23,753 nt of DNA, taken from the UHGV virus genome UHGV-0105281. One strand, written 5' to 3'. The stretch comes from a virus. The notes under the pieces were generated by a model. It did not search any database. It was not told the origin of the DNA and saw only the letters and a list, made by a program, of their open reading frames with translations. This document shows, in pieces, positions 3,469-23,753 of the stretch. The position numbers and the translations under genes are program-made. The first letter of the stretch is position 1; each line of letters starts with the position of its first letter.

Positions 3469-3932
3469 GCAGAGTAACCGCGATTATCTCCGCTCTGGTT
3501 ATCTGCATCATCGTCTGTCTGTCATGGGCTGTTAATCATTACCGTGATAACGCCATCGCCTACAAAGAACAGCGTGATAAAAAAGTCAGTGAGCTGAAGC
3601 AGGCGACCGCCACCATTACTGACATGCAGCAACGCCAGCGTGCTGCTGATGTACTCGATGCAAAATACACGAAGGAGTTAGCTGATGCGAAAGCTGAAAA
3701 TGATGCTCTTCTGCGGAAGCTTGATAATGGTGGCAGGGTGCTCGTCAAAGGAAAATGCCCTGTGCCATCCTCTGCCGAAACCTCCAGCGCCTCCGGCATG
3801 GGCAATGATGCCACCGTCGAACTCTCTCCAGTTGCTGGACGAAACGTTCTCGGTATCCGGGACGGAATTATCCGCGACCAAACAGCATTGAGAACGCTTC
3901 AGGAATACATCAGGACGCAATGCCTTCGATGA
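3465..3932 (+). CDS. Rz i-spanin
   Basis: N-terminal TM segment followed by a charged coiled-coil region; ATG 3465 overlaps the endolysin stop (ATGA). The ORF track start at 3453 is a GTG. Confidence 0.85.
3685..3891 (+). CDS. Rz1 o-spanin lipoprotein, embedded in the +1 frame of Rz
   Basis: [19 protein letters not shown] signal peptide with lipobox and a Pro-rich mature region ([11 protein letters not shown]); AGGAG RBS 7 nt upstream. Confidence 0.8.
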
Positions 3933-4106
3933 TAGCGATAATTTTACTCATCATCCTTCACATCTGGCTCTGTAGACAGGGTGGTGCTCACTTCTGGAGT
4001 GAATCCAGATTAAACATCTCATTGCTGATGCTTGATATTGAGCATCTGGCGCGCAGTAAGGGGCTGCGTTGAGATAAGAGCCAGTTCATTACAAATACCA
4101 GGATTT

Positions 4107-4133
4107 AGCCTCGCATTTGCGGGGCTTTTTTAT
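4107..4133 (+). terminator. Rho-independent terminator downstream of the lysis cassette
   Basis: agcctcgc-attt-gcggggct hairpin followed by ttttttat. Confidence 0.6.
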
Positions 4134-4275
4134 ATCTGAATTTCACAGCGCATCTCACGCGCATATTAACGAGAGCCTTTCAGTAAGCGAGCCTGAGAAA
4201 TGCCGTTATAGGTGGCGACCTCTCTCGGGCGGCTTTTCTGTGAGACAGGCTCACTTTCTAAAAGGTAAAGACGCT

Positions 4276-4794
4276 ATGAATCATCAATTGGCTAATCTCG
4301 ATTTCCGGGACATGGTGGTTGTTTCTGGTGATCGCGTGATCACAACCTCCCGCAAGGTAGCAGCTTACTTCGACAAGCAGCATCACCACATCATTCAGAA
4401 AATCGAAAAGCTAGACTGTTCGGATGAATTTCTAACCAGCAACTTTTCGCGGGTTACCTATGAACACAAGGGTAATCAGTATGTTGAATATGAAATTTCC
4501 AAAGACGGTGCGATGTACATCATCATGTCGTTTACCGGCAAAAAAGCTGCCGCCATCAAAGAGGCGTTTATCAAAGCATTTAATTGGATGCGTGACAGGC
4601 TGATGGAGATGGCTCACTCATACCAAAGAGAGCACAACGAGTTAATGCTGGAGTTCATGAAGGAAAAGGATGTTGCCAGTATGTCAGGACGCTTGCTGAA
4701 CCGCTGGGGCAGGATCAAAAAACCGCAACTCATAGCAAGAATCGAAAGGCTTGAGCAGCAGGCGCAAATATCGATCCCCGGACTGCCAAAGTGA
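4276..4794 (+). CDS. rha: Rha-family phage regulatory protein
   Basis: MNHQLANLDFRDMVVVSGDRVITTSRKVAAYFDKQHHHIIQKIEKL is a typical pRha N-terminal domain. The ORF-track start at 4117 lies inside the upstream terminator, so ATG 4276 is preferred. Confidence 0.75.
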   Translation: MNHQLANLDFRDMVVVSGDRVITTSRKVAAYFDKQHHHIIQKIEKLDCSDEFLTSNFSRVTYEHKGNQYVEYEISKDGAMYIIMSFTGKKAAAIKEAFIKAFNWMRDRLMEMAHSYQREHNELMLEFMKEKDVASMSGRLLNRWGRIKKPQLIARIERLEQQAQISIPGLPK

Positions 4795-5077
4795 CCATTC
4801 CAAAGCCCATCTACGGGTGGGCTTGATAATGAAACCGTGATTTACATCCCCACAATCCGGGTATGTAAAAGATAGTTCAGACAAGAACAGATTTAACTAA
4901 ATCTGTGCACCACCAGTTACGGCAGTACCGCGAAACAACCCAAGCCAGTAAGTGGGGAAATAACACTGGCAGCCACTGAAAGATGAACCTCCAGCCTTAT
5001 GGCAAAAAAGATTCTTTGTGGTGGCGGACTGATGGAAAGACATCCTAATCAAGCAACCACTCTACAGGGTCATAATT

Positions 5078-5449
5078 ATGAACGACCAGCAAATCGAAAA
5101 AGAAATCGTTGAGAAAGGCAAAACGGCACCGCGAATCACCCCGCAGCACATCGAAGACGTGATTAAAAGCGAGCATTGCTTCACCGCATACGATGGTATT
5201 GGCGGAGAGGGCGCTATGGCGACATACAAATCCGCGCTTGATTTAACCGAAAGTCAGGAAGCATTAAAGCTTCTTACATTCTGCGTCCTGGTGCTGCGCA
5301 ACGGCTTCACCGTCACCGGCGAAAGTGCCTGCGCCAGCCCGGAAAACTTCGACCCGGAGATCGGTCGCAAGATCGCCCGCGAAAATGCGGTGAATAAAAT
5401 CTGGATGCTGGAAGGTGACTTGCTGAAGCAGAAGTTAAGCGAACAGTAG
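5078..5449 (+). CDS. Gp49-like protein (N4 Gp49 / Sf6 gene 66 family)
   Basis: 123 aa; motif ...TFCVLVLRNGFTVTGESACASPENFDPEIGRKIARENAVNKIW is characteristic of this family as I recall it. Confidence 0.6.
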   Translation: MNDQQIEKEIVEKGKTAPRITPQHIEDVIKSEHCFTAYDGIGGEGAMATYKSALDLTESQEALKLLTFCVLVLRNGFTVTGESACASPENFDPEIGRKIARENAVNKIWMLEGDLLKQKLSEQ

Positions 5450-5552
5450 TTATTACAAAAGCCATTCCCTACAGAGTGGCTTTGATAATGGCTTATACCC
5501 TACACGGGATAACTTAACTGATATCCCTTTTAACGGATAAACGGAGCCAACA

Positions 5553-10084: not shown

Positions 10085-10981
10085 ATGGACCAGATGGCAG
10101 AAAACACACCAGAAGTTGAAATCGAAACCGACGCGTCAGAGCAGATTCCTGATGATGTCGAACTGGCTGAAGAAGTCGAAACAGAAGATGGCAGTGAGTC
10201 CTCCGGCAATGATGCAGAGGAAGCTACTGAAACTGATGACGACGAATCAGAACAGGAATTCTACTTTGGTGACGAAAAGCTGGATTCGCCAACCAGCGAA
10301 GATGGCGCAGAGCATGGACTGGTAAAACACCTGCGCAAGACGATTAAAGAGAAAGACCGTGAGCTGAAAGAGCTGATGCGTCAGTCTCAGAAACCCGTCG
10401 AGCAGCAGCCGGTAATCACTCAACCACCGCGAATGCCAAAACTGGATGATGAGGACATCGGTTTCGATGAAGAAATCTACCAGCAACGCATGGCTAAGTG
10501 GGCAGAGGATAACGGCAAGTACCAGCAACAGGAGATGGCTCGCAAGCAGAAGGAGCAGGAGCTTCAGGCTGCCTATCAAGAGCGATTATCCAAATATCAG
10601 CAACGTGTTAAGGCTCTCAAAGTTCCTGGCTATCAGGAAGCTGAGCAGGCCGTACTCGAGGAAATTCCCATCGAGACACAAAACGCGATCCTGTTTGAGT
10701 CAGAGAAGCCGGAAATCGTTGTTCTGGCGCTCGGTCGCAACGCTGAACTGCGCAAGCAACTGGCAGAAGCTACCAACCCCGTAGCAATTGGTCGTCTGCT
10801 GGAACGTATAGAATCGAAGGCCAGAATCATGCCAAAAGCAAAAACCACGGCAGCCACAACCCCGACAGTTAAGGGGAGCAACGGCGCAGTAATCAATAAC
10901 CTCGACAAACTTCTCGAAAAAGCGCGCGACACCGGTGATTACACCGAATACCGGGCGGCGAAGAACAAAGCTAAAAAATAA
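10085..10981 (+). CDS. Scaffolding protein (gp8-like)
   Basis: 298 aa, highly acidic N-terminus, helical and charged throughout; lies between portal and coat. Confidence 0.75.
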   Translation: MDQMAENTPEVEIETDASEQIPDDVELAEEVETEDGSESSGNDAEEATETDDDESEQEFYFGDEKLDSPTSEDGAEHGLVKHLRKTIKEKDRELKELMRQSQKPVEQQPVITQPPRMPKLDDEDIGFDEEIYQQRMAKWAEDNGKYQQQEMARKQKEQELQAAYQERLSKYQQRVKALKVPGYQEAEQAVLEEIPIETQNAILFESEKPEIVVLALGRNAELRKQLAEATNPVAIGRLLERIESKARIMPKAKTTAATTPTVKGSNGAVINNLDKLLEKARDTGDYTEYRAAKNKAKK

Positions 10982-11001
10982 TCCATCGGAGCTAAATACC
11001 T

Positions 11002-12261
11002 ATGTCTAACCAGTTAACAAAAGACCTCGAAATCCTCTTTGAGAGCGTCATTGATAGTTTTGAGGCGTCCAATGTCGTTTCCCGCGAGTGCAGCAAGTTC
11101 CGACCGGGCGACATTGAAATGCAGCGCGCTGGCGACGTTGTTTATCGCCCTCAGGGCTACCACCTGAAAACCGTGAGCGGACTTGATCTGACTTCGGCCA
11201 CTGCAAACTCACTCGTTCAGCGTCAGGTGCCTGCTCGCTTCCGCGAGCCAGAGAACGTCATCTACGAACTGGACGCAAAAGAAATGCGCGATCCGTGGCA
11301 CAAAGAGCAGGCTGGCAAGGCGGCGGGTCGCCAGTTGGCGGCGTGGGTTGATAACATGATCGTCGATGAGGTGGTCGCTCGCTCCACCAACGTGGTCACC
11401 ATTAAATCGGCGTCCACCGGTAGCACTCTCGGCGAAGAACTCTGGAACGCATCGGCTGACGTTGATGCAATGATGCTGTCCATTGGTGTGCCTCAGGGTG
11501 GTCAGCGCAAGGCGTTCTACAACCCGTTCAACTACAAAGACCTGGCTAAGGAGCTTGGCTCTCGCGCATATGCGGTCGGTGCAACTCTGACAGCCTATGA
11601 GAAAGCTCAGATTCCACCTGTGGCATCCTTCGACAGTTTCCGCGTTGATTATGCTGGCGCAATGAAGGCTGGTTCAGCTACCGCTGTAACTCTCGGCGGC
11701 GCAGTAAAACACAAAGTTACCGCGATGGATTCCAACGGCGCGCCTACCGATAACCGCCAGGGTGACATCACCGTATCCACTGCTGGCGTACTGGCTGTCG
11801 GCGATGCATTCACTATCGCAGGCGTTAACAGTGTCCACATGATCAAGAAGGTGGATACAGGTAAGCCGCAGGTATTCCGCGTCCTGGCAGTAAATGGCAC
11901 TACCGTTACCATCAGCCCGAAAATTCTGCCACCAGACAACGCGGATAAGGCGTCTATTCCTTACCAGAACGTTACCGCCAATCCGGTGGCAAACGCGGCG
12001 ATCACCATCCTCAACAAGAAGGCTGCGGCTTCCAACATCTTCTTCGCTGAGGGTTCTGTTGAGCTGATGTATGGCAAGTTGGCATTCCCTACCGGCCAGG
12101 GTCCGCAGGTTATGACCGCAACGACCGAGCAGGGTGCGACCATCATCATGGCTTACCAATTCGACGCTAAATCTGGCAAAACGTGGACTCGCTTCACCAC
12201 GCTGGCTGGCGCAAGCGTACTGGTCCCGGAATTCACCGGCCTGGTACTGGCTAACCAGTAA
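11002..12261 (+). CDS. Major capsid (coat) protein (gp5-like)
   Basis: 419 aa in the coat position after the scaffold gene, followed by a strong terminator. Confidence 0.8.
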   Translation: MSNQLTKDLEILFESVIDSFEASNVVSRECSKFRPGDIEMQRAGDVVYRPQGYHLKTVSGLDLTSATANSLVQRQVPARFREPENVIYELDAKEMRDPWHKEQAGKAAGRQLAAWVDNMIVDEVVARSTNVVTIKSASTGSTLGEELWNASADVDAMMLSIGVPQGGQRKAFYNPFNYKDLAKELGSRAYAVGATLTAYEKAQIPPVASFDSFRVDYAGAMKAGSATAVTLGGAVKHKVTAMDSNGAPTDNRQGDITVSTAGVLAVGDAFTIAGVNSVHMIKKVDTGKPQVFRVLAVNGTTVTISPKILPPDNADKASIPYQNVTANPVANAAITILNKKAAASNIFFAEGSVELMYGKLAFPTGQGPQVMTATTEQGATIIMAYQFDAKSGKTWTRFTTLAGASVLVPEFTGLVLANQ

Positions 12262-19691: not shown

Positions 19692-20333
19692 TCAAAGCAA
19701 CGGGATTTCAAGGTAAACTGCGGTTGCCAAAATACTAACATCTTCATTTCTAACAAGAATATTAGGATACATTGGGTTTAGGGATACTAGGTTTGTCTCT
19801 ATTTCACCAATGTAAACCTGTTTGAAGCTCAATATTTGCTCTTTATCCAATGATGCTATTACATAATCTTTGCTTTTAGCTTTTACTAGAGGGCTGAACG
19901 TGACAACCGATCCTCTGGGAAAGCTAATACCTGAACTTGTAGTCATAGCTTCACCTTCAATAGTCAATGCAAATGCAGAGTCACCAACATTGTATATTGC
20001 CGGATGAAATCTAGACGATGAATGTTCACCTGTGTTTAGGTAATGCATAACTTCATCTAGTTTGAGGATTGGTATTTGCTTTACCAGAACGTCAGGCATG
20101 ACGTTTTTTGTTCCCGGACCCTGACCTTCACCTAGAGCTAACCACTCAGCTGTAGTACCTAATGCGTTGGCTAATGCCTGCAATACCCGAAGCCGTGGTT
20201 TAGCCTCACCACCCTCGTATGCAGCTATTTGACGTTGAACAACACCAGCTAATTTTGACAACTGCGCCTGCGTCATACCCCTGGACTGTCTTGCCAGAGA
20301 TACTCTTGATGGGAATTGATCGTCAAAATTCAT
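19692..20333 (-). CDS. CI/LexA-like repressor (N-terminal HTH, C-terminal S24 peptidase fold) with Ser-to-Ala at the nucleophile position
   Basis: N-terminal HTH (GMTQAQLSKLAGVVQRQIAAYEGG); C-terminal S24-like region in which FALTIEGEAM aligns with LexA FLLRVSGMSM, placing Ala where the catalytic Ser sits (codon GCT confirmed in DNA); the Lys of the dyad is retained (SFKQV). Confidence 0.8.
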   Translation of the reverse strand: MNFDDQFPSRVSLARQSRGMTQAQLSKLAGVVQRQIAAYEGGEAKPRLRVLQALANALGTTAEWLALGEGQGPGTKNVMPDVLVKQIPILKLDEVMHYLNTGEHSSSRFHPAIYNVGDSAFALTIEGEAMTTSSGISFPRGSVVTFSPLVKAKSKDYVIASLDKEQILSFKQVYIGEIETNLVSLNPMYPNILVRNEDVSILATAVYLEIPLL

Positions 20334-20354
20334 TAGTTCACCATAAAAAATTCA

Positions 20355-20383
20355 TTGACTCATGCTGAGTGTGAGTGAATAAT
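20355..20383 (+). promoter_or_regulatory. Rightward promoter (TTGACT, 17-bp spacer, AATAAT) with overlapping operator-like palindrome and TGAGT repeats
   Basis: Promoter hexamers read directly; palindrome ACTCA-TGC-TGAGT at 20358-20370 and tandem TGAGTG at 20366-20377. Confidence 0.4.
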
Positions 20384-20432
20384 CAAACTACAAAAAGTGA
20401 GATTATGAGTTTTTTAAAAACAGGAGTGCATA

Positions 20433-20606
20433 ATGACTGAAAAGATATCTTCCATCAAGCCGCGTCAGGTTCGTTTTACAGAAAAGGTTGATTCACATAT
20501 CCGCGAATCAGCAAAAAGATGCCATAGGTCAATTCAGGCAGAGATAGCTTATCGAATGGAGTTATTGATGAAACTTGAGGCAAAGGGCGATGTTGTCATC
20601 CAATAA
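20433..20606 (+). CDS. Arc/Mnt-family ribbon-helix-helix regulator (57 aa)
   Basis: Not in the ORF track (under 60 aa). AGGAG RBS 6 nt upstream; PRQVRFTEKVDSHIRESAKRCHRSIQAEIAYRMELL parallels Arc PQFNLRWPREVLDLVRKVAEENGRSVNSEIYQRVMESF. Confidence 0.6.
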   Translation: MTEKISSIKPRQVRFTEKVDSHIRESAKRCHRSIQAEIAYRMELLMKLEAKGDVVIQ

Positions 20607-20679
20607 AAATAGTGAAGCCCGGCAGTGCGCGAACACAAACCGGGCCTCTATGTCAGTAACCGTATGCAAGGAAACTAAC

Positions 20680-21306
20680 ATGAATATTGTAGCAAAATCA
20701 GATTACAACTTCCACGGAGTTGAGTTGGTGCCCACCCGTGATATGCATGGTGTTTGGTTTACATCATCTAATATTGCATCTGCACTTAAATACGCAAATA
20801 GTCGTGCAGTAACAATGATTTATAACAAGTATAGCGATGAGTTTAGCGCCGGAATGACTCAGGTACTCGAAGTGAGTACCTCAGGAAATTATCGCAAAAA
20901 AGTGCGAGTTTTCTCACTACGCGGTGCCCACCTAATCGCGATGTTTGCTCGCACTCCGGTAGCCAAAGAGTTCCGCCGCTGGGTGCTGGATATTTTGGAT
21001 CGGCAGGCAGAATGCTCACCGATTGCAAAACAGTTTACTGACGAAGAACTGGTTAATCTCTGCTACTTACAATTGTGGATGGAGAAGAGTCAACAAATGT
21101 GCAAACACATCTACCCAGGAATGAAGCAAATTGGTTCTGAGCTTTCAGGAAGGATTTACGATATTGCATATGAGACTCGCTACATGTCAGAAGAAACCAA
21201 GAAATCACTTCTTCGTGAAATGAAGAATCTTGATACCAACAATTTTGTCGTAAAGAACGCTCAGCCAATGCTGGCAAAACTTCGCGGCGAGGAATGGATT
21301 CATTGA
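20680..21306 (+). CDS. Bro-N domain antirepressor-like protein
   Basis: 208 aa from ATG 20680 (AAGGA RBS); Bro-N-like N-terminus (FHGVELVPTRDMHGVWFTSSNIASALKY...SLRGAHLIAMFARTPVAKEFRRWVLDIL). The ORF-track start at 20575 overlaps the RHH gene. Confidence 0.7.
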   Translation: MNIVAKSDYNFHGVELVPTRDMHGVWFTSSNIASALKYANSRAVTMIYNKYSDEFSAGMTQVLEVSTSGNYRKKVRVFSLRGAHLIAMFARTPVAKEFRRWVLDILDRQAECSPIAKQFTDEELVNLCYLQLWMEKSQQMCKHIYPGMKQIGSELSGRIYDIAYETRYMSEETKKSLLREMKNLDTNNFVVKNAQPMLAKLRGEEWIH

Positions 21307-21321
21307 TTGGTGCGCCGGACT

Positions 21322-21400
21322 GCGCAAAAAGAAAACCGCCAGTGTGCTGCTGGCGGCCTATGTCACACCCTTACTACCACATAAGGAATGCCTAATGACT
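21322..21400 (-). ncRNA. Predicted sar-like antisense sRNA covering the RBS and start codon of the downstream Ant-like gene
   Basis: Minus-strand promoter inside the start of the Ant-like gene (-35 GTGACA at 21430-21435, 17-bp spacer, -10 TACATT at 21407-21412) and a minus-strand intrinsic terminator (hairpin 21336-21356 followed by a T-run at 21322-21335). Confidence 0.3.
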
Positions 21401-22123
21401 TTTAAGAATGTAGCAAACATCGGATCCGTTGTCACGGATAAAACCATTGATAGCCAGTACCTGTTAGAGATGGTCAATCATGCTCGTAGACAGTGCGGGG
21501 AAAAAGAAGTCCGAAATAACGACTTTATTGCACGCATTAAGGATGAACTTGAAGGTGAGCACTACGAAATTTTCGTAGTTCAAAAATCAAACAAGACAAC
21601 TTCTGAAAAAGTTGTTATGTCAATTAAGCAAGCCCTTCGAGTGGCTGCTCGTGAATCTAAAGCTGTTCGCCGCTCACTTGTAGACCAACTTGAAAGTATG
21701 CAAGAAGCGCACATTAAAAGCGGTAAATCGTCGAGTGGACTTGTTGAGTATCGCCAGGCGCGAACATTGAAAATGACGGTTGAAGCTGTTACCAATCTGT
21801 TCGATTTGATGCCAAATCTTGCGCCGGAAGCAAAGCAGACTGCGGCAGCAAGCATAATCAACCCGATCGTTGGTTTTAATGCAATACCTCTTCCAGCAAT
21901 AGAAGAGCATTACTACTCAGCAGGGGAGGTTGCAGAGCAGCTTGGAGTAACGGCCAACAAGATTGGTCGCATTGCTAACGCAAACAACCTCAAAACTGAG
22001 CAGTACGGGAAGTTCTTCCTGGATAAATCTGCACATTCCAGCAAACAGGTGGAAGCATTCCGCTACAATGCGGAAGGTGTTAAAGCTCTACAACACCTGA
22101 TTCATGGGAGTAATGTTGCATAA
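21395..22123 (+). CDS. Ant-like antirepressor (Rha/AntA-like N-terminus with KilA-C-like C-terminus)
   Basis: 242 aa from ATG 21395 (AAGGA RBS); N-terminal region resembles the pRha pattern and the C-terminal region resembles KilA-C (YYSAGEVAEQLGVTANKIGRIANANNLKTEQYGKFF). Confidence 0.55.
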   Translation: MTFKNVANIGSVVTDKTIDSQYLLEMVNHARRQCGEKEVRNNDFIARIKDELEGEHYEIFVVQKSNKTTSEKVVMSIKQALRVAARESKAVRRSLVDQLESMQEAHIKSGKSSSGLVEYRQARTLKMTVEAVTNLFDLMPNLAPEAKQTAAASIINPIVGFNAIPLPAIEEHYYSAGEVAEQLGVTANKIGRIANANNLKTEQYGKFFLDKSAHSSKQVEAFRYNAEGVKALQHLIHGSNVA

Positions 22124-22344
22124 TGGCAAAGAAAAAATATGGCATTATGCCGCCAAGAATCAAAGGAAGAGCCAGGGTAAAAGGCGATGCTGGGAGGTAT
22201 CACATTCTTGGAGTTCTGTGGCATGAGAGAGCTTTAATTTTAAGTAGACCTCATGGGTACATTGAAAAGGTATCTATAGATAGAGTAGAGATTCTTCCCC
22301 TTACACCTGAAGAAGAAGAAACGTACGGACTTTTTGATAACTAA
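22123..22344 (+). CDS. Hypothetical small basic protein (73 aa)
   Basis: TAATG-coupled to the upstream gene and followed by a strong terminator. Confidence 0.5.
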   Translation: MAKKKYGIMPPRIKGRARVKGDAGRYHILGVLWHERALILSRPHGYIEKVSIDRVEILPLTPEEEETYGLFDN

Positions 22345-22350
22345 CCAACT

Positions 22351-22378
22351 AAACCCGCTTAATCGCGGGTTTTTTATA
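22351..22378 (+). terminator. Strong hairpin terminator between convergent operons
   Basis: aaacccgc-ttaat-gcgggttt hairpin followed by ttttt; A-run on the 5' side gives partial bidirectionality. Confidence 0.7.
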
Positions 22379-22400: not shown

Positions 22401-22937
22401 TCAAACAACCCACCAGTTTGCCTGATTGGATACCAGCCTTGCAGTTTTTATGGAATTAATTATGCCATGCTCAAGAGCCTTGTTAGCATCCAAAATGGTC
22501 GAGTCTGCTATCAGGGATGCCCACCTAATATGGGTTCCGATGTCGATATTGAACGTCTCAACGAAGCGATCAAGATCGTTATCGAGGCATTTCCCGTACT
22601 CTCTCAATCTGGCATGGTCGGCGGCTGGGGAGGCAAAGCACCATAATAGAGGATGTAACAGGAATCTTGATAATGGGTTTGCGAAACGTTCTGAGCCAGC
22701 CAGGAAAACGATATTAGCTATGGATTCAACATTGCTTATGTTGTGAGTTCTAACGGTAACAGGGAGTGACTTAAGAAAGTTATACGCAGTAAAGCCAGCG
22801 GCTGTTTCCCCTCCCTGACTTGATATATGGATATTTAATTCAGTTGCGCCTTGAGATAATGCGGTGAGACAGTGGTTCTGAAGTTGCCCAACAGTGGCGG
22901 TGTTAACGGGGCATAAGAAATGAATTGTGTGCAGCAT
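22401..22937 (-). CDS. ClpP-fold (peptidase S14-like) serine protease, translationally coupled to mnt
   Basis: 178 aa; aligns by eye with E. coli ClpP over the catalytic core, with Ser (VESIANIVFLAG), His (FLLHPLL) and Asp (ADSTIL) all present; its ATG overlaps the mnt stop (TAATG). Confidence 0.7.
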   Translation of the reverse strand: MLHTIHFLCPVNTATVGQLQNHCLTALSQGATELNIHISSQGGETAAGFTAYNFLKSLPVTVRTHNISNVESIANIVFLAGSERFANPLSRFLLHPLLWCFASPAADHARLREYGKCLDNDLDRFVETFNIDIGTHIRWASLIADSTILDANKALEHGIINSIKTARLVSNQANWWVV

Positions 22938-23191
22938 TATTTATCATCCTTGCCATAAATCTTTTTAAGTGTCTCAAACACAACAGTCTTGAACTGCTCT
23001 GCTTGCTGATCAGCCAAGCGTTCAGCTTCGTCTCGATAGCCTGCAATCGGTGATGGTTCAGATAACGCCTTCTGTACGATCTGAACTAGTTCAGAATTGA
23101 TAGACCGACCATTCATTTTTGCCCTTTGGTCTAACTTTGCTTTTAACTCTGCTGGAAGGCGCAACTTAAATTGTGGGTCTTCTCTGGACAT
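22937..23191 (-). CDS. mnt: Mnt repressor (ribbon-helix-helix)
   Basis: 84 aa; MSREDPQFKLRLPAELKAKLDQRAKMNGRSINSELVQIVQKALSEPSPIAGYRDEAERLADQQ closely matches my recollection of P22 Mnt. Confidence 0.85.
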   Translation of the reverse strand: MSREDPQFKLRLPAELKAKLDQRAKMNGRSINSELVQIVQKALSEPSPIAGYRDEAERLADQQAEQFKTVVFETLKKIYGKDDK

Positions 23192-23210
23192 TTTATCACC
23201 ATGTTTTTTC

Positions 23211-23262
23211 TTGACAGTCTATAACGGTGATAGTACATTCTCAATTGAACCACGGTGGTTCA
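23211..23262 (+). promoter_or_regulatory. Pant-like promoter with candidate Arc operator in the spacer and Mnt-type 17-bp palindromic operator at the transcript start
   Basis: TTGACA (23211-23216), 17-bp spacer containing CTAT-aacggtg-ATAG, -10 TACATT (23234-23239), palindrome TGAACCAC-G-GTGGTTCA at 23246-23262. Confidence 0.6.
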
Positions 23263-23278
23263 TTGATTGGGAGAGGGT

Positions 23279-23437
23279 ATGCAAGGTGCAAGAAAAATGC
23301 CGCAGTTTAATTTGCGGATGCCTAAAGAAGTATTGGATTTGGTGCGCAAGGTAGCCAAAGAGAATGAGCGATCTGTTAACTCTGAGATTTACAAGCGAGT
23401 ATTGGACAGCCTGAAGAGGGAGGGGGTAATGGTATGA
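23279..23437 (+). CDS. arc: Arc repressor (ribbon-helix-helix)
   Basis: 52 aa, not in the ORF track; MQGARKMPQFNLRMPKEVLDLVRKVAKENERSVNSEIYKRVLDSLKREG closely matches my recollection of P22 Arc; GGGAGAGGG RBS. Confidence 0.85.
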   Translation: MQGARKMPQFNLRMPKEVLDLVRKVAKENERSVNSEIYKRVLDSLKREGVMV

Positions 23438-23703
23438 GGGTGTCATTGCTTGATCGTTCTTTACAATTTTTGTCTGGCGCAATCATTGTGGTTTGCTTGC
23501 TTGTGATTTTTACAGCGCTAATCAATATGTATCAATCAGGGGAACGATTGACAAAGACGATAGAGGAAAAGAAATCAGTCTCAAATTACGAAGTATCACA
23601 TGCACATAACGATTTAGTAGAAAGCCTTGACCGTATTAACAAGAGGCTTGACGAGACAAATATGCTACTTAAGCAAATTCAAAATGAAGTGGAAAAACGT
23701 TGA
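23434..23703 (+). CDS. Membrane-anchored coiled-coil protein (89 aa) in the position ant occupies in P22
   Basis: ATGA overlap with the arc stop; N-terminal TM helix (FLSGAIIVVCLLVIFTALINMY) and a charged helical C-terminus. Confidence 0.55.
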   Translation: MRVSLLDRSLQFLSGAIIVVCLLVIFTALINMYQSGERLTKTIEEKKSVSNYEVSHAHNDLVESLDRINKRLDETNMLLKQIQNEVEKR

Positions 23704-23753
23704 AGCCCCAACTGCTGGAACAGTCAGGGCTTCGGTATCAACAAATCGTCTTA

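What the first reader, a model, noticed from the sequence alone, without database searches (positions are those of the whole stretch)
22401..23191. ClpP-fold serine protease with intact catalytic triad, translationally coupled to the Mnt repressor
P22-like phages have no capsid maturation protease, and this gene sits on the minus strand in the immunity-I-like region, not in the head module. Its ATG overlaps the mnt stop codon (TAATG), so it is co-expressed with the lysogenic maintenance repressor. The 178-aa product aligns with the ClpP catalytic core and keeps Ser, His and Asp, so it is probably active. A lysogen-expressed protease in this locus could be a defence or exclusion effector, or could target a phage or host regulator. 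I do not recognise this arrangement as a described P22 immI component.
Basis: partly seen in the sequence, partly recalled or inferred. Interest (0 to 1): 0.7.

Follow-up and report, generated by a model that had tools for sequence, protein, structure and literature searches.

The report
Short ClpP protease in prophage mnt operon
A P22-like E. coli phage carries, as second gene of its Mnt repressor operon, a shortened ClpP-type protease subunit that lacks the canonical Asp and the ClpX/ClpA docking parts; a 40%-identical Pseudomonas relative was characterised in 2026, so the protein type is known and only its prophage setting is undescribed.

Summary
The two genes are real. mnt lies at 23191-22937 (-) and a 178-aa ClpP-fold gene at 22937-22401 (-), with stop and start sharing one base (TAATG).

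The protein passes Pfam CLP_protease. Its model (pLDDT 93) matches PDB 9UXT, Pseudomonas plecoglossicida ClpP1, at TM 0.94. That relative is a short tetradecameric ClpP with weak peptidase activity. It does not bind ClpX and works in mixed barrels with the housekeeping ClpP.

Ser72 and His95 are invariant across the family. The "intact triad" claim fails: the canonical Asp position is Ser146, and no Asp occurs there in 172 relatives. The N-terminal gate and most of the ClpX/ClpA docking pocket are missing.

The gene replaces orf59a of the P22 mnt operon. Relatives sit in other antisense cargo slots of prophages without any Mnt, and chromosomally in Pseudomonas. It is under strong purifying selection (dN/dS 0.08).

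Best reading: a lysogen-expressed accessory ClpP subunit that probably acts through host ClpP. A defence role is untested, and no known defence family matches. I rate it a new member of a known kind, of moderate interest.

The parts
22401..22937 (-). Short ClpP-type serine protease subunit of the PpClpP1 type, 178 aa. Ser72 and His95 are the active-site pair. Ser146 sits at the canonical Asp position. There is no N-terminal axial loop or helix A.
   Evidence: ORF. Pfam CLP_protease 44.4 bits. Family profile against PDB 9uxt_A, E 2.4e-51. AF2 pLDDT 93.4. Foldseek 9uxt_A TM 0.94, E. coli ClpP TM 0.83. Residue mapping. dN/dS 0.08 against the Pectobacterium copy.
22937..23191 (-). mnt, an Arc/MetJ-type ribbon-helix-helix repressor with the Mnt C-terminal domain, 84 aa. 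It is the first gene of the operon, and its TAA stop shares base 22937 with the ClpP ATG.
   Evidence: Pfam Arc 7e-19 and Repressor_Mnt 3e-12. 60.5% identity to P22 Mnt over residues 1-81. Sequence.
22947..22951 (-). AAGGA Shine-Dalgarno for the ClpP gene. It lies inside the last codons of mnt, 9 nt before the ATG.
   Evidence: Read directly from the sequence. The 3' end of mnt (…YGKDDK) stays conserved where the rest of mnt is only 40-47% identical.
22351..22372 (.). GC-rich hairpin (AAACCCGC-6 nt-GCGGGTTT) between the convergent ClpP gene and the 73-aa ORF. On the + strand it has a full U-tract. On the - strand it has only a weak U-tract, so it is a plausible end of the mnt-clpP transcript.
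   Evidence: Fold -15.6 and -15.0 kcal/mol, z -2.6 and -3.5. The consensus scan did not call it.
23216..23244 (-). Pmnt-like sigma-70 promoter (TTGAGA-17-TAGACT) reading into mnt and clpP.
   Evidence: Scan 9/12. Same position and the same ATTGAGAAT -35 context as the annotated P22 Pmnt.
23211..23239 (+). Pant-like promoter (TTGACA-17-TACATT) reading into arc. It overlaps Pmnt face to face, as in P22 immI.
   Evidence: Scan 10/12. Comparison with the annotated P22 region.
23246..23262 (.). 17-bp palindrome TGAACCAC-C-GTGGTTCA, an Omnt-like operator in the place of P22 Omnt (AGGTCCAC-C-GTGGACCT).
   Evidence: Inverted repeat, 8+8 nt, 100% complementary. Side-by-side sequences. P22 annotation.
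23267..23437 (+). arc, the divergent partner gene of immI, 56 aa.
   Evidence: Pfam Arc 1.5e-24.

Best explanation
The gene encodes a prophage-borne accessory ClpP subunit of the short, PpClpP1-like type. It is carried as cargo in the second position of the mnt operon. Sequence homology to P22 immI (Omnt, Pmnt, Pant) implies that it is transcribed from Pmnt together with Mnt in the lysogen. The shared stop/start base and its own Shine-Dalgarno couple its translation to mnt. The product has the ClpP core fold and the invariant Ser72-His95 pair, so it should be a peptidase. It has no canonical Asp, no N-terminal gate and no ClpX/ClpA docking pocket, so it cannot be a self-sufficient ATP-dependent protease. 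By analogy with PpClpP1, it most likely forms heptameric rings that stack on a ring of the host housekeeping ClpP. The host ring docks ClpX or ClpA, and the hybrid barrel has altered degradation capacity. This would retune Clp-dependent proteolysis in the lysogen. Shown here: the gene, its coupling, the fold, the active-site pair, the missing parts, purifying selection, and mobility between prophage cargo slots. Inferred: oligomeric state, hybrid formation with E. coli ClpP, expression in the lysogen, and any benefit such as lysogeny stability, exclusion of other phages or host fitness.
For: Anatomy. immI homology and P22 operon layout (mnt-orf59a-terminator, then PsieA-sieA). Family and fold: Pfam; profile E 2.4e-51 to 9UXT; model pLDDT 93.4; TM 0.94 and rmsd 1.6 to 9uxt_A. 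Biochemistry of the homologue (PMC12900304): tetradecamer with a 42.7 A pore; S73A and H96A abolish activity; the third residue is dispensable; no ClpX binding; a stable heterotetradecamer with the canonical ClpP has higher peptidase activity and slightly higher ClpX-dependent degradation. Missing parts here: the alignment starts at mature E. coli residue 24. Of 12 hydrophobic docking-pocket residues, 10 are absent or replaced by polar or small residues: L23 absent, A52 gap, L48T, F49A, Y60N, Y62H, F82S, I90H, L114N, L189K (pocket list from 10.1101/820209). Ser72, His95, Gly43 and Arg84 are 100% conserved in 172 relatives and 149 distant representatives. dN/dS is 0.08. Cargo behaviour: the same allele (98.9% aa) is joined to Mnt alleles only 40-47% identical to this one. 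The cassette occurs in P22-like immI and also between tail genes L and K of lambdoid PhiR12 phages. Relatives at 52-74% identity lie antisense between Rz/LysC and terminase (Klebsiella, E. coli, Leclercia), between N and erf/ssb (Proteus), and between tail-fibre and lysis genes (Chromobacterium). About 133 of 5426 complete E. coli genomes carry it at 95% identity or more.
Against: Nothing here shows that the product meets E. coli ClpP; it is only about 20% identical to it. Hybrid formation is extrapolated from one homologue at 38-40% identity that lives in a different, chromosomal context. The gain in ClpXP activity reported for that hybrid was small ('slightly higher'), which is a weak basis for a selectable phenotype. 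Expression from Pmnt is inferred from sequence alone. The downstream hairpin lacks a good U-tract in the mnt direction. No phenotype is known for any prophage copy, and literature searches found none.
Confidence: 0.45

Rival explanations
1. It is a stand-alone, ATPase-independent open-pore peptidase that acts as a prophage defence or superinfection-exclusion effector. Without the N-terminal gate the barrel would admit unfolded or disordered polypeptides, for example injected or early proteins of incoming phages, or antirepressors, and destroy them.
For: The N-terminal gate is absent, and the homologue has a 42.7 A pore. The Ser-His pair is invariant. In every prophage context examined at gene level the gene lies antisense to flanking lytic operons, in slots that classically hold exclusion or conversion genes: next to mnt, where P22 keeps sieA nearby, in a Proteus N-erf interval, and just after Rz. 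In my recollection, lambda sieB lies in the N-to-recombination interval and lambda bor just after Rz; I did not check either here.
Against: PpClpP1 alone degraded neither FITC-casein nor GFP-ssrA. There is no match to any PADLOC defence model. The Pseudomonas and Massilia branch is chromosomal and, in the two loci whose neighbours I scanned, not in a defence island or prophage.
Confidence: 0.2
2. It is a decoy or dominant-negative subunit. It co-assembles with host ClpP to reduce ClpXP/ClpAP activity, for example to stabilise a prophage or host protein. Catalysis would be secondary.
For: It lacks the docking pocket and axial loops, so any ring it forms cannot recruit an unfoldase. The homologue has low intrinsic activity.
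Against: Ser72, His95 and the oxyanion-loop glycine Gly43 are kept in 100% of relatives, and Gly42 in 172/172 relatives and 147/149 distant representatives. A pure decoy would not need them. The characterised hybrid was more active than the canonical homo-oligomer, not less.
Confidence: 0.1
3. It is a capsid (head) maturation protease, or a decayed remnant of one, as annotated in phage phiv205-1.
For: The best PHROG hit is phrog_94 'head maturation protease', 7e-21. NCBIfam Clp_rel_HeadMat gives 49 bits. The GenBank annotation of MN340231 uses this name.
Against: The NCBIfam score is far below the cut-off (49 against 120). The gene lies outside the head module on the opposite strand, after gene 16. 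The head module has a separate scaffolding gene and no protease in related records. P22-type capsids mature without proteolysis (established knowledge). The closest relative by far is a cellular short ClpP, and viral structure matches are all 25% identity or less. dN/dS 0.08 rules out a decaying remnant.
Confidence: 0.02
4. Mnt and the ClpP-like protein form a toxin-antitoxin-like pair, with a ribbon-helix-helix antitoxin followed by an overlapping toxin gene.
For: The layout, a small RHH gene with a 1-nt overlap to the next gene, resembles type II TA operons. There is a weak NCBIfam RelB-like hit for Mnt (24 bits, cut-off 50).
Against: An RHH gene is coupled upstream in 50 of 55 loci at 70% identity or more. 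None was detected among 44 loci at 50-70% in that scan or among 75 loci below 50%. A 66%-identical Providencia copy, not in that scan, also follows an Arc/Mnt gene. The RHH protein is a bona fide Mnt with its operator and divergent arc.
Confidence: 0.02

Closest known systems
PpClpP1 of Pseudomonas plecoglossicida (PDB 9UXT; Chen et al., PLoS Pathog 2026, PMC12900304)
   Same: Same short-ClpP family: profile E 2.4e-51, 38-40% identity, TM 0.94. Same N-terminal truncation, the same invariant Ser/His pair and a non-acidic residue at the Asp position (Pro there, Ser146 here). The conserved C-terminal W-containing strand is shared.
   Different: PpClpP1 is treated as a chromosomal paralogue. Its relatives in the Pseudomonas putida group follow a small PF04120 membrane-protein gene and are not in prophages. 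The window gene is prophage cargo coupled to mnt. Hybrid formation with the host ClpP is shown for PpClpP1 and is only inferred here.
Canonical ClpP (E. coli ClpP, MEROPS S14, Pfam PF00574)
   Same: Core fold (TM 0.83), Ser97/His122 equivalents, the oxyanion-loop GG, and Arg111. It passes the Pfam gathering score.
   Different: About 20% identity. It lacks mature residues 1-23 (axial loop and most of helix A), Asp171 (Ser146 instead), and 10 of 12 hydrophobic docking-pocket residues. It scores far below every NCBIfam ClpP cut-off.
Accessory ClpP isoforms that work in mixed barrels (Listeria ClpP1/ClpP2, PDB 4RYF; Pseudomonas aeruginosa ClpP1/ClpP2)
   Same: A second ClpP with a non-canonical third catalytic residue and weak activity on its own. 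PMC12900304 cites the Ser-His-Asn triad of Listeria ClpP1. 4RYF is among the top structural matches.
   Different: Those isoforms are full-length chromosomal paralogues. This one is truncated and carried by phages.
P22 immI region (mnt-orf59a | PsieA-sieA; arc-ant)
   Same: Homologous Mnt (60.5% identity), arc, an Omnt-like palindrome, and overlapping divergent promoters in the same register.
   Different: P22 has the 59-codon orf59a after mnt, with sieA beyond a terminator. Here the ClpP-like gene takes the orf59a place. The sieA interval holds a LexA/CI-like repressor and two antirepressor genes.
ClpP-related phage head maturation proteases (PHROG 94, NCBIfam NF045542)
   Same: ClpP fold and weak profile similarity.
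   Different: It scores below the family cut-off, is not in a head module, has no scaffold or capsid fusion partner, and sits in a phage type that uses no prohead protease.

Membership tests
ClpP / Pfam PF00574 (MEROPS S14) | Profile match above the curated cut-off | tested here: met
   44.4 bits against 20.2, E 2.2e-11, residues 24-165.
ClpP / Pfam PF00574 (MEROPS S14) | ClpP core fold | tested here: met
   AF2 model pLDDT 93.4. Foldseek TM 0.83-0.85 to E. coli and S. aureus ClpP.
ClpP / Pfam PF00574 (MEROPS S14) | Catalytic Ser and His at the homologous positions | tested here: met
   Ser72 aligns with Ser97 and His95 with His122. Both are invariant in 172 relatives and 149 representatives.
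ClpP / Pfam PF00574 (MEROPS S14) | Catalytic Asp (E. coli Asp171) | tested here: not met
   It aligns with Ser146. The column is A63 P53 S35 E12 T4 G4 with no Asp in 172 relatives, and there is no Asp in 149 representatives.
ClpP / Pfam PF00574 (MEROPS S14) | N-terminal axial loop and helix A (gate, unfoldase contact) | tested here: not met
   Residue 1 aligns with mature E. coli residue 24.
ClpP / Pfam PF00574 (MEROPS S14) | Hydrophobic IGF/IGL-loop docking pocket (L23, L48, F49, A52, Y60, Y62, F82, I90, M92, F112, L114, L189) | tested here: not met
   Only M92I and F112F stay hydrophobic. The other ten are absent, polar or small. The residue list comes from 10.1101/820209.
ClpP / Pfam PF00574 (MEROPS S14) | NCBIfam ClpP equivalog or subfamily cut-offs | tested here: not met
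   19-40 bits against cut-offs of 228-361.
Short ClpP of the PpClpP1 type (PDB 9UXT) | Close sequence and structure relationship to 9UXT | tested here: met
   Profile E 2.4e-51 over the full length. 40% identity. TM 0.94/0.91, rmsd 1.6.
Short ClpP of the PpClpP1 type (PDB 9UXT) | N-terminal truncation with Ser-His and a non-acidic third residue | tested here: met
   The paper gives Ser73-His96-Pro151.
Short ClpP of the PpClpP1 type (PDB 9UXT) | Homotetradecamer; heterotetradecamer with the housekeeping ClpP; no ClpX binding alone | not testable with these tools
   Only single-chain prediction is available. These properties are known for PpClpP1 only.
ClpP-related phage head maturation protease (NF045542 / PHROG 94) | Family score above cut-off, and location in the head module beside portal, scaffold and capsid genes | tested here: not met
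   49.3 bits against 120. The gene is on the opposite strand beyond gene 16.
Type II toxin-antitoxin pair (RHH antitoxin plus toxin) | Conserved co-occurrence of the two genes across the family | tested here: not met
   RHH is coupled in 50/55 loci at 70% identity or more. None was detected in the 119 scanned loci below 70%; one 66%-identical Providencia copy outside that scan does follow an Arc/Mnt gene.
P22-type immunity I region | Mnt with its C-terminal domain, divergent arc, overlapping Pmnt/Pant, palindromic Omnt | tested here: met
P22-type immunity I region | ant downstream of arc | tested here: inconclusive
   The window ends at 23753, inside or just after the 89-aa ORF that follows arc. 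Related prophages have an antirepressor next.
Known anti-phage defence systems (PADLOC-DB 2.0) | Match to any defence-protein model | tested here: not met
   No families at E up to 1 for the ClpP-like protein or for Mnt.

The most novel reading that the evidence does not exclude
Temperate phages of Enterobacterales spread a 'ClpP-lite' subunit that is expressed from the prophage and plugs into the host Clp machine as a hybrid barrel. This would reprogram which proteins ClpXP/ClpAP destroys in the lysogen and thereby control lysogeny stability or exclude other phages. It would be the first viral accessory ClpP isoform, and a new kind of lysogenic-conversion or exclusion function in the classic immI region.
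Probability: 0.25. Interest if true: 0.7.

Novelty: new member of a known kind. Interest (0 to 1): 0.45.

Why it matters
P22 immI is a textbook regulatory region, and this cassette adds an enzyme to the Mnt transcript. If the product does join host ClpP, prophages would be tuning a central host protease from within the lysogeny operon. That could affect prophage induction, antirepressor control, toxin-antitoxin stability and sensitivity to ClpP-targeting antibiotics. The gene is common enough to matter: it is in about 2-3% of complete E. coli genomes, and related copies occur in Klebsiella, Proteus, Pectobacterium and Providencia prophages. It is easy to test genetically. The results also change how the 2026 PpClpP1 work can be read. 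That protein belongs to a broad family (243 clusters at 50% identity with E of 1e-30 or better) whose enterobacterial branch is phage cargo. The paper never uses the word 'prophage'. Finally, public annotations of this gene as 'head maturation protease' or 'ATP-dependent Clp protease proteolytic subunit' are misleading.

Tried and rejected
1. Defence-system membership: PADLOC gave no hit.

2. Toxin-antitoxin reading: rejected, because the RHH partner is confined to the closest clade.

3. Head-protease reading: rejected on score, location and nearest relatives.

4. My own first mapping of the catalytic Asp to Asn161 (the 'GLVD' motif) was a memory error. Checking the E. coli K-12 sequence showed that Asp171 lies in 'TERDRFL' and aligns with Ser146. 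The conclusion, no canonical Asp, did not change, but the residue did.

5. Prophage origin of the Pseudomonas branch: not supported. The neighbours there are metabolic or membrane genes.

6. The consensus terminator scan missed the hairpin after the gene. Folding shows it, but with a weak U-tract in the mnt direction.

7. Literature searches for prophage ClpP cargo genes, P22-like phages with a Clp protease, and ClpP with superinfection found nothing on this gene.

8. The viral structure library holds no close relative; all matches are 25% identity or less.

9. I could not inspect model coordinates. Whether another acidic residue (Asp145, or the invariant Asp121 or Glu113) reaches His95 is therefore untested.
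Full report
**What is in the sequence.** On the minus strand, an 84-aa ORF (23191-22937) is followed by a 178-aa ORF (22937-22401). The junction reads GAT AAA TAATG CTG, so the TAA stop and the ATG start share base 22937. An AAGGA Shine-Dalgarno lies 9 nt upstream, inside the last codons of the first gene.

The first product is an Mnt repressor. It hits Pfam Arc at 7e-19 and Repressor_Mnt at 3e-12, and it is 60.5% identical to P22 Mnt. The second product passes Pfam CLP_protease at 44.4 bits against a cut-off of 20.2.

The window as a whole is a P22-like E. coli phage. It carries terminase, portal, scaffold, coat and ejection proteins up to gene 16, followed by an immunity-I-like region.

**The regulatory frame is homologous to P22 immI.**
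- Between mnt and the divergent arc gene (23267-23437, Pfam Arc 1.5e-24) lie two overlapping face-to-face promoter-like sites. On the + strand this is TTGACA-17-TACATT, and on the - strand TTGAGA-17-TAGACT.
- A perfect palindrome, TGAACCAC-C-GTGGTTCA, lies at 23246-23262.
- Side by side with the annotated P22 region, the palindrome sits exactly where Omnt (AGGTCCAC-C-GTGGACCT) sits. It is next to the same ATTGAGAAT -35 context of Pmnt.
- In P22 the mnt transcript carries mnt, then orf59a, then a terminator. sieA follows with its own promoter (also PMC10883804).
- Here the ClpP-like gene takes the orf59a position.
- A GC-rich hairpin at 22351-22372 follows it. Its U-tract is good only for the convergent + strand genes, so termination of the mnt transcript there is plausible but not demonstrated.

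**What the protein is.** A search of 5.8 billion proteins gave 68 clusters, almost all annotated generically as Clp protease subunits of Enterobacterales, plus one from Chromobacterium. A profile of 31 members hits one solved structure far above all others. That structure is 9UXT chain A, E 2.4e-51, against about 1e-13 for canonical ClpPs.

The AlphaFold model is confident (pLDDT 93.4, pTM 0.89). It superposes on 9UXT with TM 0.94/0.91 and rmsd 1.6 A at 38% identity, and on E. coli ClpP with TM about 0.83 at 20% identity.

9UXT is ClpP1 of Pseudomonas plecoglossicida, described in PLoS Pathogens in 2026 (PMC12900304). The paper reports the following:
- It is N-terminally truncated and forms a tetradecamer with a 42.7 A axial pore.
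- It has a 'Ser73-His96-Pro151' site. S73A and H96A abolish activity, and the third residue is dispensable.
- Its peptidase efficiency is 13-fold lower than that of the housekeeping ClpP.
- It does not bind ClpX, and it does not degrade casein or GFP-ssrA on its own.
- It forms a stable heterotetradecamer with the housekeeping ClpP. The hybrid is more active as a peptidase and slightly more active with ClpX.

**Catalytic residues.** I aligned the family with E. coli K-12 ClpP taken from the genome record.
- Ser72 corresponds to Ser97, His95 to His122, Gly43 to the oxyanion-loop Gly68 and Arg84 to Arg111.
- These residues are 100% conserved in 172 non-redundant relatives, and in the 149 best representatives of a search of 1.84 billion cluster representatives.
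- The catalytic Asp171 of E. coli lies in 'TERDRFL', which I verified on the sequence. It aligns with Ser146 here and with the proline of 9UXT. The HMMER profile alignment agrees.
- That column holds A63 P53 S35 E12 T4 G4 in 172 relatives and has no Asp. The distant representatives have none either.
- The adjacent Asp145 of this protein is present in only 19 of 172 relatives.

The family is a Ser-His enzyme with a variable, mostly non-acidic third position. I note that I first placed the Asp at Asn161 from memory and corrected this after checking.

**Missing interaction parts.** Residue 1 aligns with mature E. coli residue 24. The axial loop and most of helix A are therefore absent.

The ClpA/ClpX loop-docking pocket of E. 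coli ClpP is formed by L48, F49, A52 and F82 of one protomer and by L23, Y60, Y62, I90, M92, F112, L114 and L189 of the next (bioRxiv 10.1101/820209). Only M92 (Ile67) and F112 (Phe85) remain hydrophobic here. The others are absent (L23), fall in a gap (A52), or are replaced: L48T, F49A, Y60N, Y62H, F82S, I90H, L114N, L189K. Several replacements, such as His65 and Asn66, are themselves nearly invariant in the family.

This matches the failure of PpClpP1 to bind ClpX. It means the protein cannot be a self-sufficient ATP-dependent protease. None of the neighbourhoods with annotated or Pfam-scanned genes contains a dedicated unfoldase gene.

**Genomic behaviour.**
- The same allele (98.9% amino-acid identity) occurs in P22-like phages phiv205-1, EC.P3 and E212, between gene 16 and the tailspike.
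- It also occurs in the lambdoid siphoviruses PhiR12_1, _4 and _5. There the whole mnt-clpP/arc/antirepressor cassette sits between tail genes L and K.
- In those phages the Mnt partner is only 40-47% identical to the one here. In most E. coli genomes the DNA match stops 40-100 nt into the 3' end of mnt. The ClpP gene therefore travels with the end of mnt, which carries its ribosome-binding site, and recombines onto different Mnt specificities.
- About 133 of 5426 complete E. coli genomes carry it at 95% identity or more. It is always chromosomal and is annotated 'ATP-dependent Clp protease proteolytic subunit' next to 'Arc family DNA-binding protein'.
- Pectobacterium (79%) and Providencia (66%) P22-like prophages have the same mnt-clpP arrangement.
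- Other relatives have no Mnt at all:
  - Leclercia (74%), Klebsiella (57%) and E. coli (52%): antisense between the Rz/LysC lysis genes and the terminase.
  - Proteus (54%): antisense between N and erf/ssb.
  - Chromobacterium (58%): antisense between tail-fibre and lysis genes.
- Over 174 loci, an RHH gene is coupled upstream in 50 of 55 loci at 70% identity or more. None was detected among the 119 scanned loci below 70%.
- The Pseudomonas putida-group and Massilia branch (about 40%) is chromosomal. In the Pseudomonas locus scanned it lies behind a small PF04120 membrane-protein gene, and many other Pseudomonas loci have a same-sized ORF ending 26 nt upstream. No prophage genes lie nearby in the two loci scanned.
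- Selection is strongly purifying. dN/dS is 0.08 against the Pectobacterium copy, and synonymous sites are saturated in deeper comparisons.

**Interpretation.** The gene is mobile prophage cargo. In every prophage context I examined at gene level it is placed against the direction of the surrounding lytic operons, or inside the lysogeny-maintenance transcript. Such slots typically hold lysogen-expressed genes.

Its product is a short ClpP with a working Ser-His pair but without the parts needed to gate itself or recruit an unfoldase. The only experimental guide is PpClpP1, which works through hybrid barrels with the housekeeping ClpP. I therefore favour (0.45) an accessory subunit that joins host ClpP and retunes Clp-dependent proteolysis in the lysogen.

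The main rival (0.2) is a stand-alone open-pore peptidase acting as an exclusion or defence effector. The inability of PpClpP1 to degrade casein, and the lack of any defence-family match, count against it. A decoy role (0.1) fits poorly with the perfect conservation of the catalytic pair. Head-maturation protease and toxin-antitoxin readings are rejected.

**Novelty.** The protein type is known since 2026, and accessory ClpP isoforms are a known concept. No paper in the searchable library mentions a ClpP gene in P22-type immI or as prophage cargo. The PpClpP1 paper never uses the word 'prophage'.

I rate it a new member of a known kind, in an undescribed setting. Interest is moderate, 0.45. 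It is not a surprise at the level of mechanism, but it is a clean, testable lead on prophage manipulation of host proteolysis.

Noticed in passing
window 19692-22344: Between gene 16 and the ClpP gene, where P22 has sieA, lies a 213-aa CI/LexA-like repressor on the minus strand (19692-20333). It combines an HTH with an S24 peptidase-like C-terminal region (weak NCBIfam UmuD-type hit). It faces three plus-strand genes. The first is an Ant-type antirepressor (20575-21306; Bro-N plus P22_AR_C). The second is another antirepressor (21344-22123; phrog_1726). The third is a 73-aa ORF (22123-22344; phrog_4977). This looks like an SOS-cleavable repressor controlling extra antirepressors, next to the classical Mnt/Arc/Ant switch. 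A related E. coli prophage has a similar layout.
   Followed up: partly
window 23434-23703: An 89-aa ORF overlaps the arc stop codon (ATGA). It has a hydrophobic N-terminal segment and a coiled-coil-like remainder. It matches phrog_27312 (unknown function, 6e-60) and no Pfam family. It sits between arc and, in relatives, the antirepressor gene. P22 has nothing there.
   Followed up: no
L002 (PhiR12_1, PV340549.1) 3525-5537: In the lambdoid siphoviruses PhiR12_1, _4 and _5, a complete P22-type immI cassette is inserted between tail genes L and K, in the middle of the tail operon. The cassette comprises mnt, the ClpP gene, a small ORF at the arc position and an antirepressor.
   Followed up: partly
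window 22937-23262 versus L001/L002 4753-5001: The same ClpP allele is joined to Mnt proteins only 40-47% identical to the one here. The last roughly 18 residues (…ETLK..YGKDDK) stay conserved. The operator half-site also differs from P22 (TGAACCAC against AGGTCCAC). In the Mnt N-terminal strand, Gln7 and Lys9 here align with P22 Mnt His7 and Asn9, numbered from the initiator Met. This suggests a distinct Mnt specificity.
   Followed up: partly
L019-L083 (Pseudomonas putida-group loci), e.g. L082 3595-3969: In Pseudomonas the short ClpP, including relatives of the published PpClpP1, is preceded on the same strand by a conserved gene of about 124-143 aa. In the one locus scanned that gene matches PF04120 ('low affinity iron permease') and ends 26 nt before the ClpP start. 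This conserved pair is not discussed in the passages of the PpClpP1 paper that I read.
   Followed up: partly
short-ClpP family, window residues 173-178: The family ends in a conserved C-terminal strand with a W-W-V motif. Trp175 is present in 162 of 172 relatives and Trp176 in 99 of 172. Canonical ClpP lacks it. The strand lies near the degenerate unfoldase-docking pocket in sequence terms. Whether it fills that pocket could not be checked without model coordinates.
   Followed up: no
MN340231.1 (phiv205-1) 10718-11254; RefSeq WP_000903306.1: Public annotations of this gene disagree, and both mislead. GenBank calls it 'head maturation protease', while PGAP calls it 'ATP-dependent Clp protease proteolytic subunit'.
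   Followed up: yes
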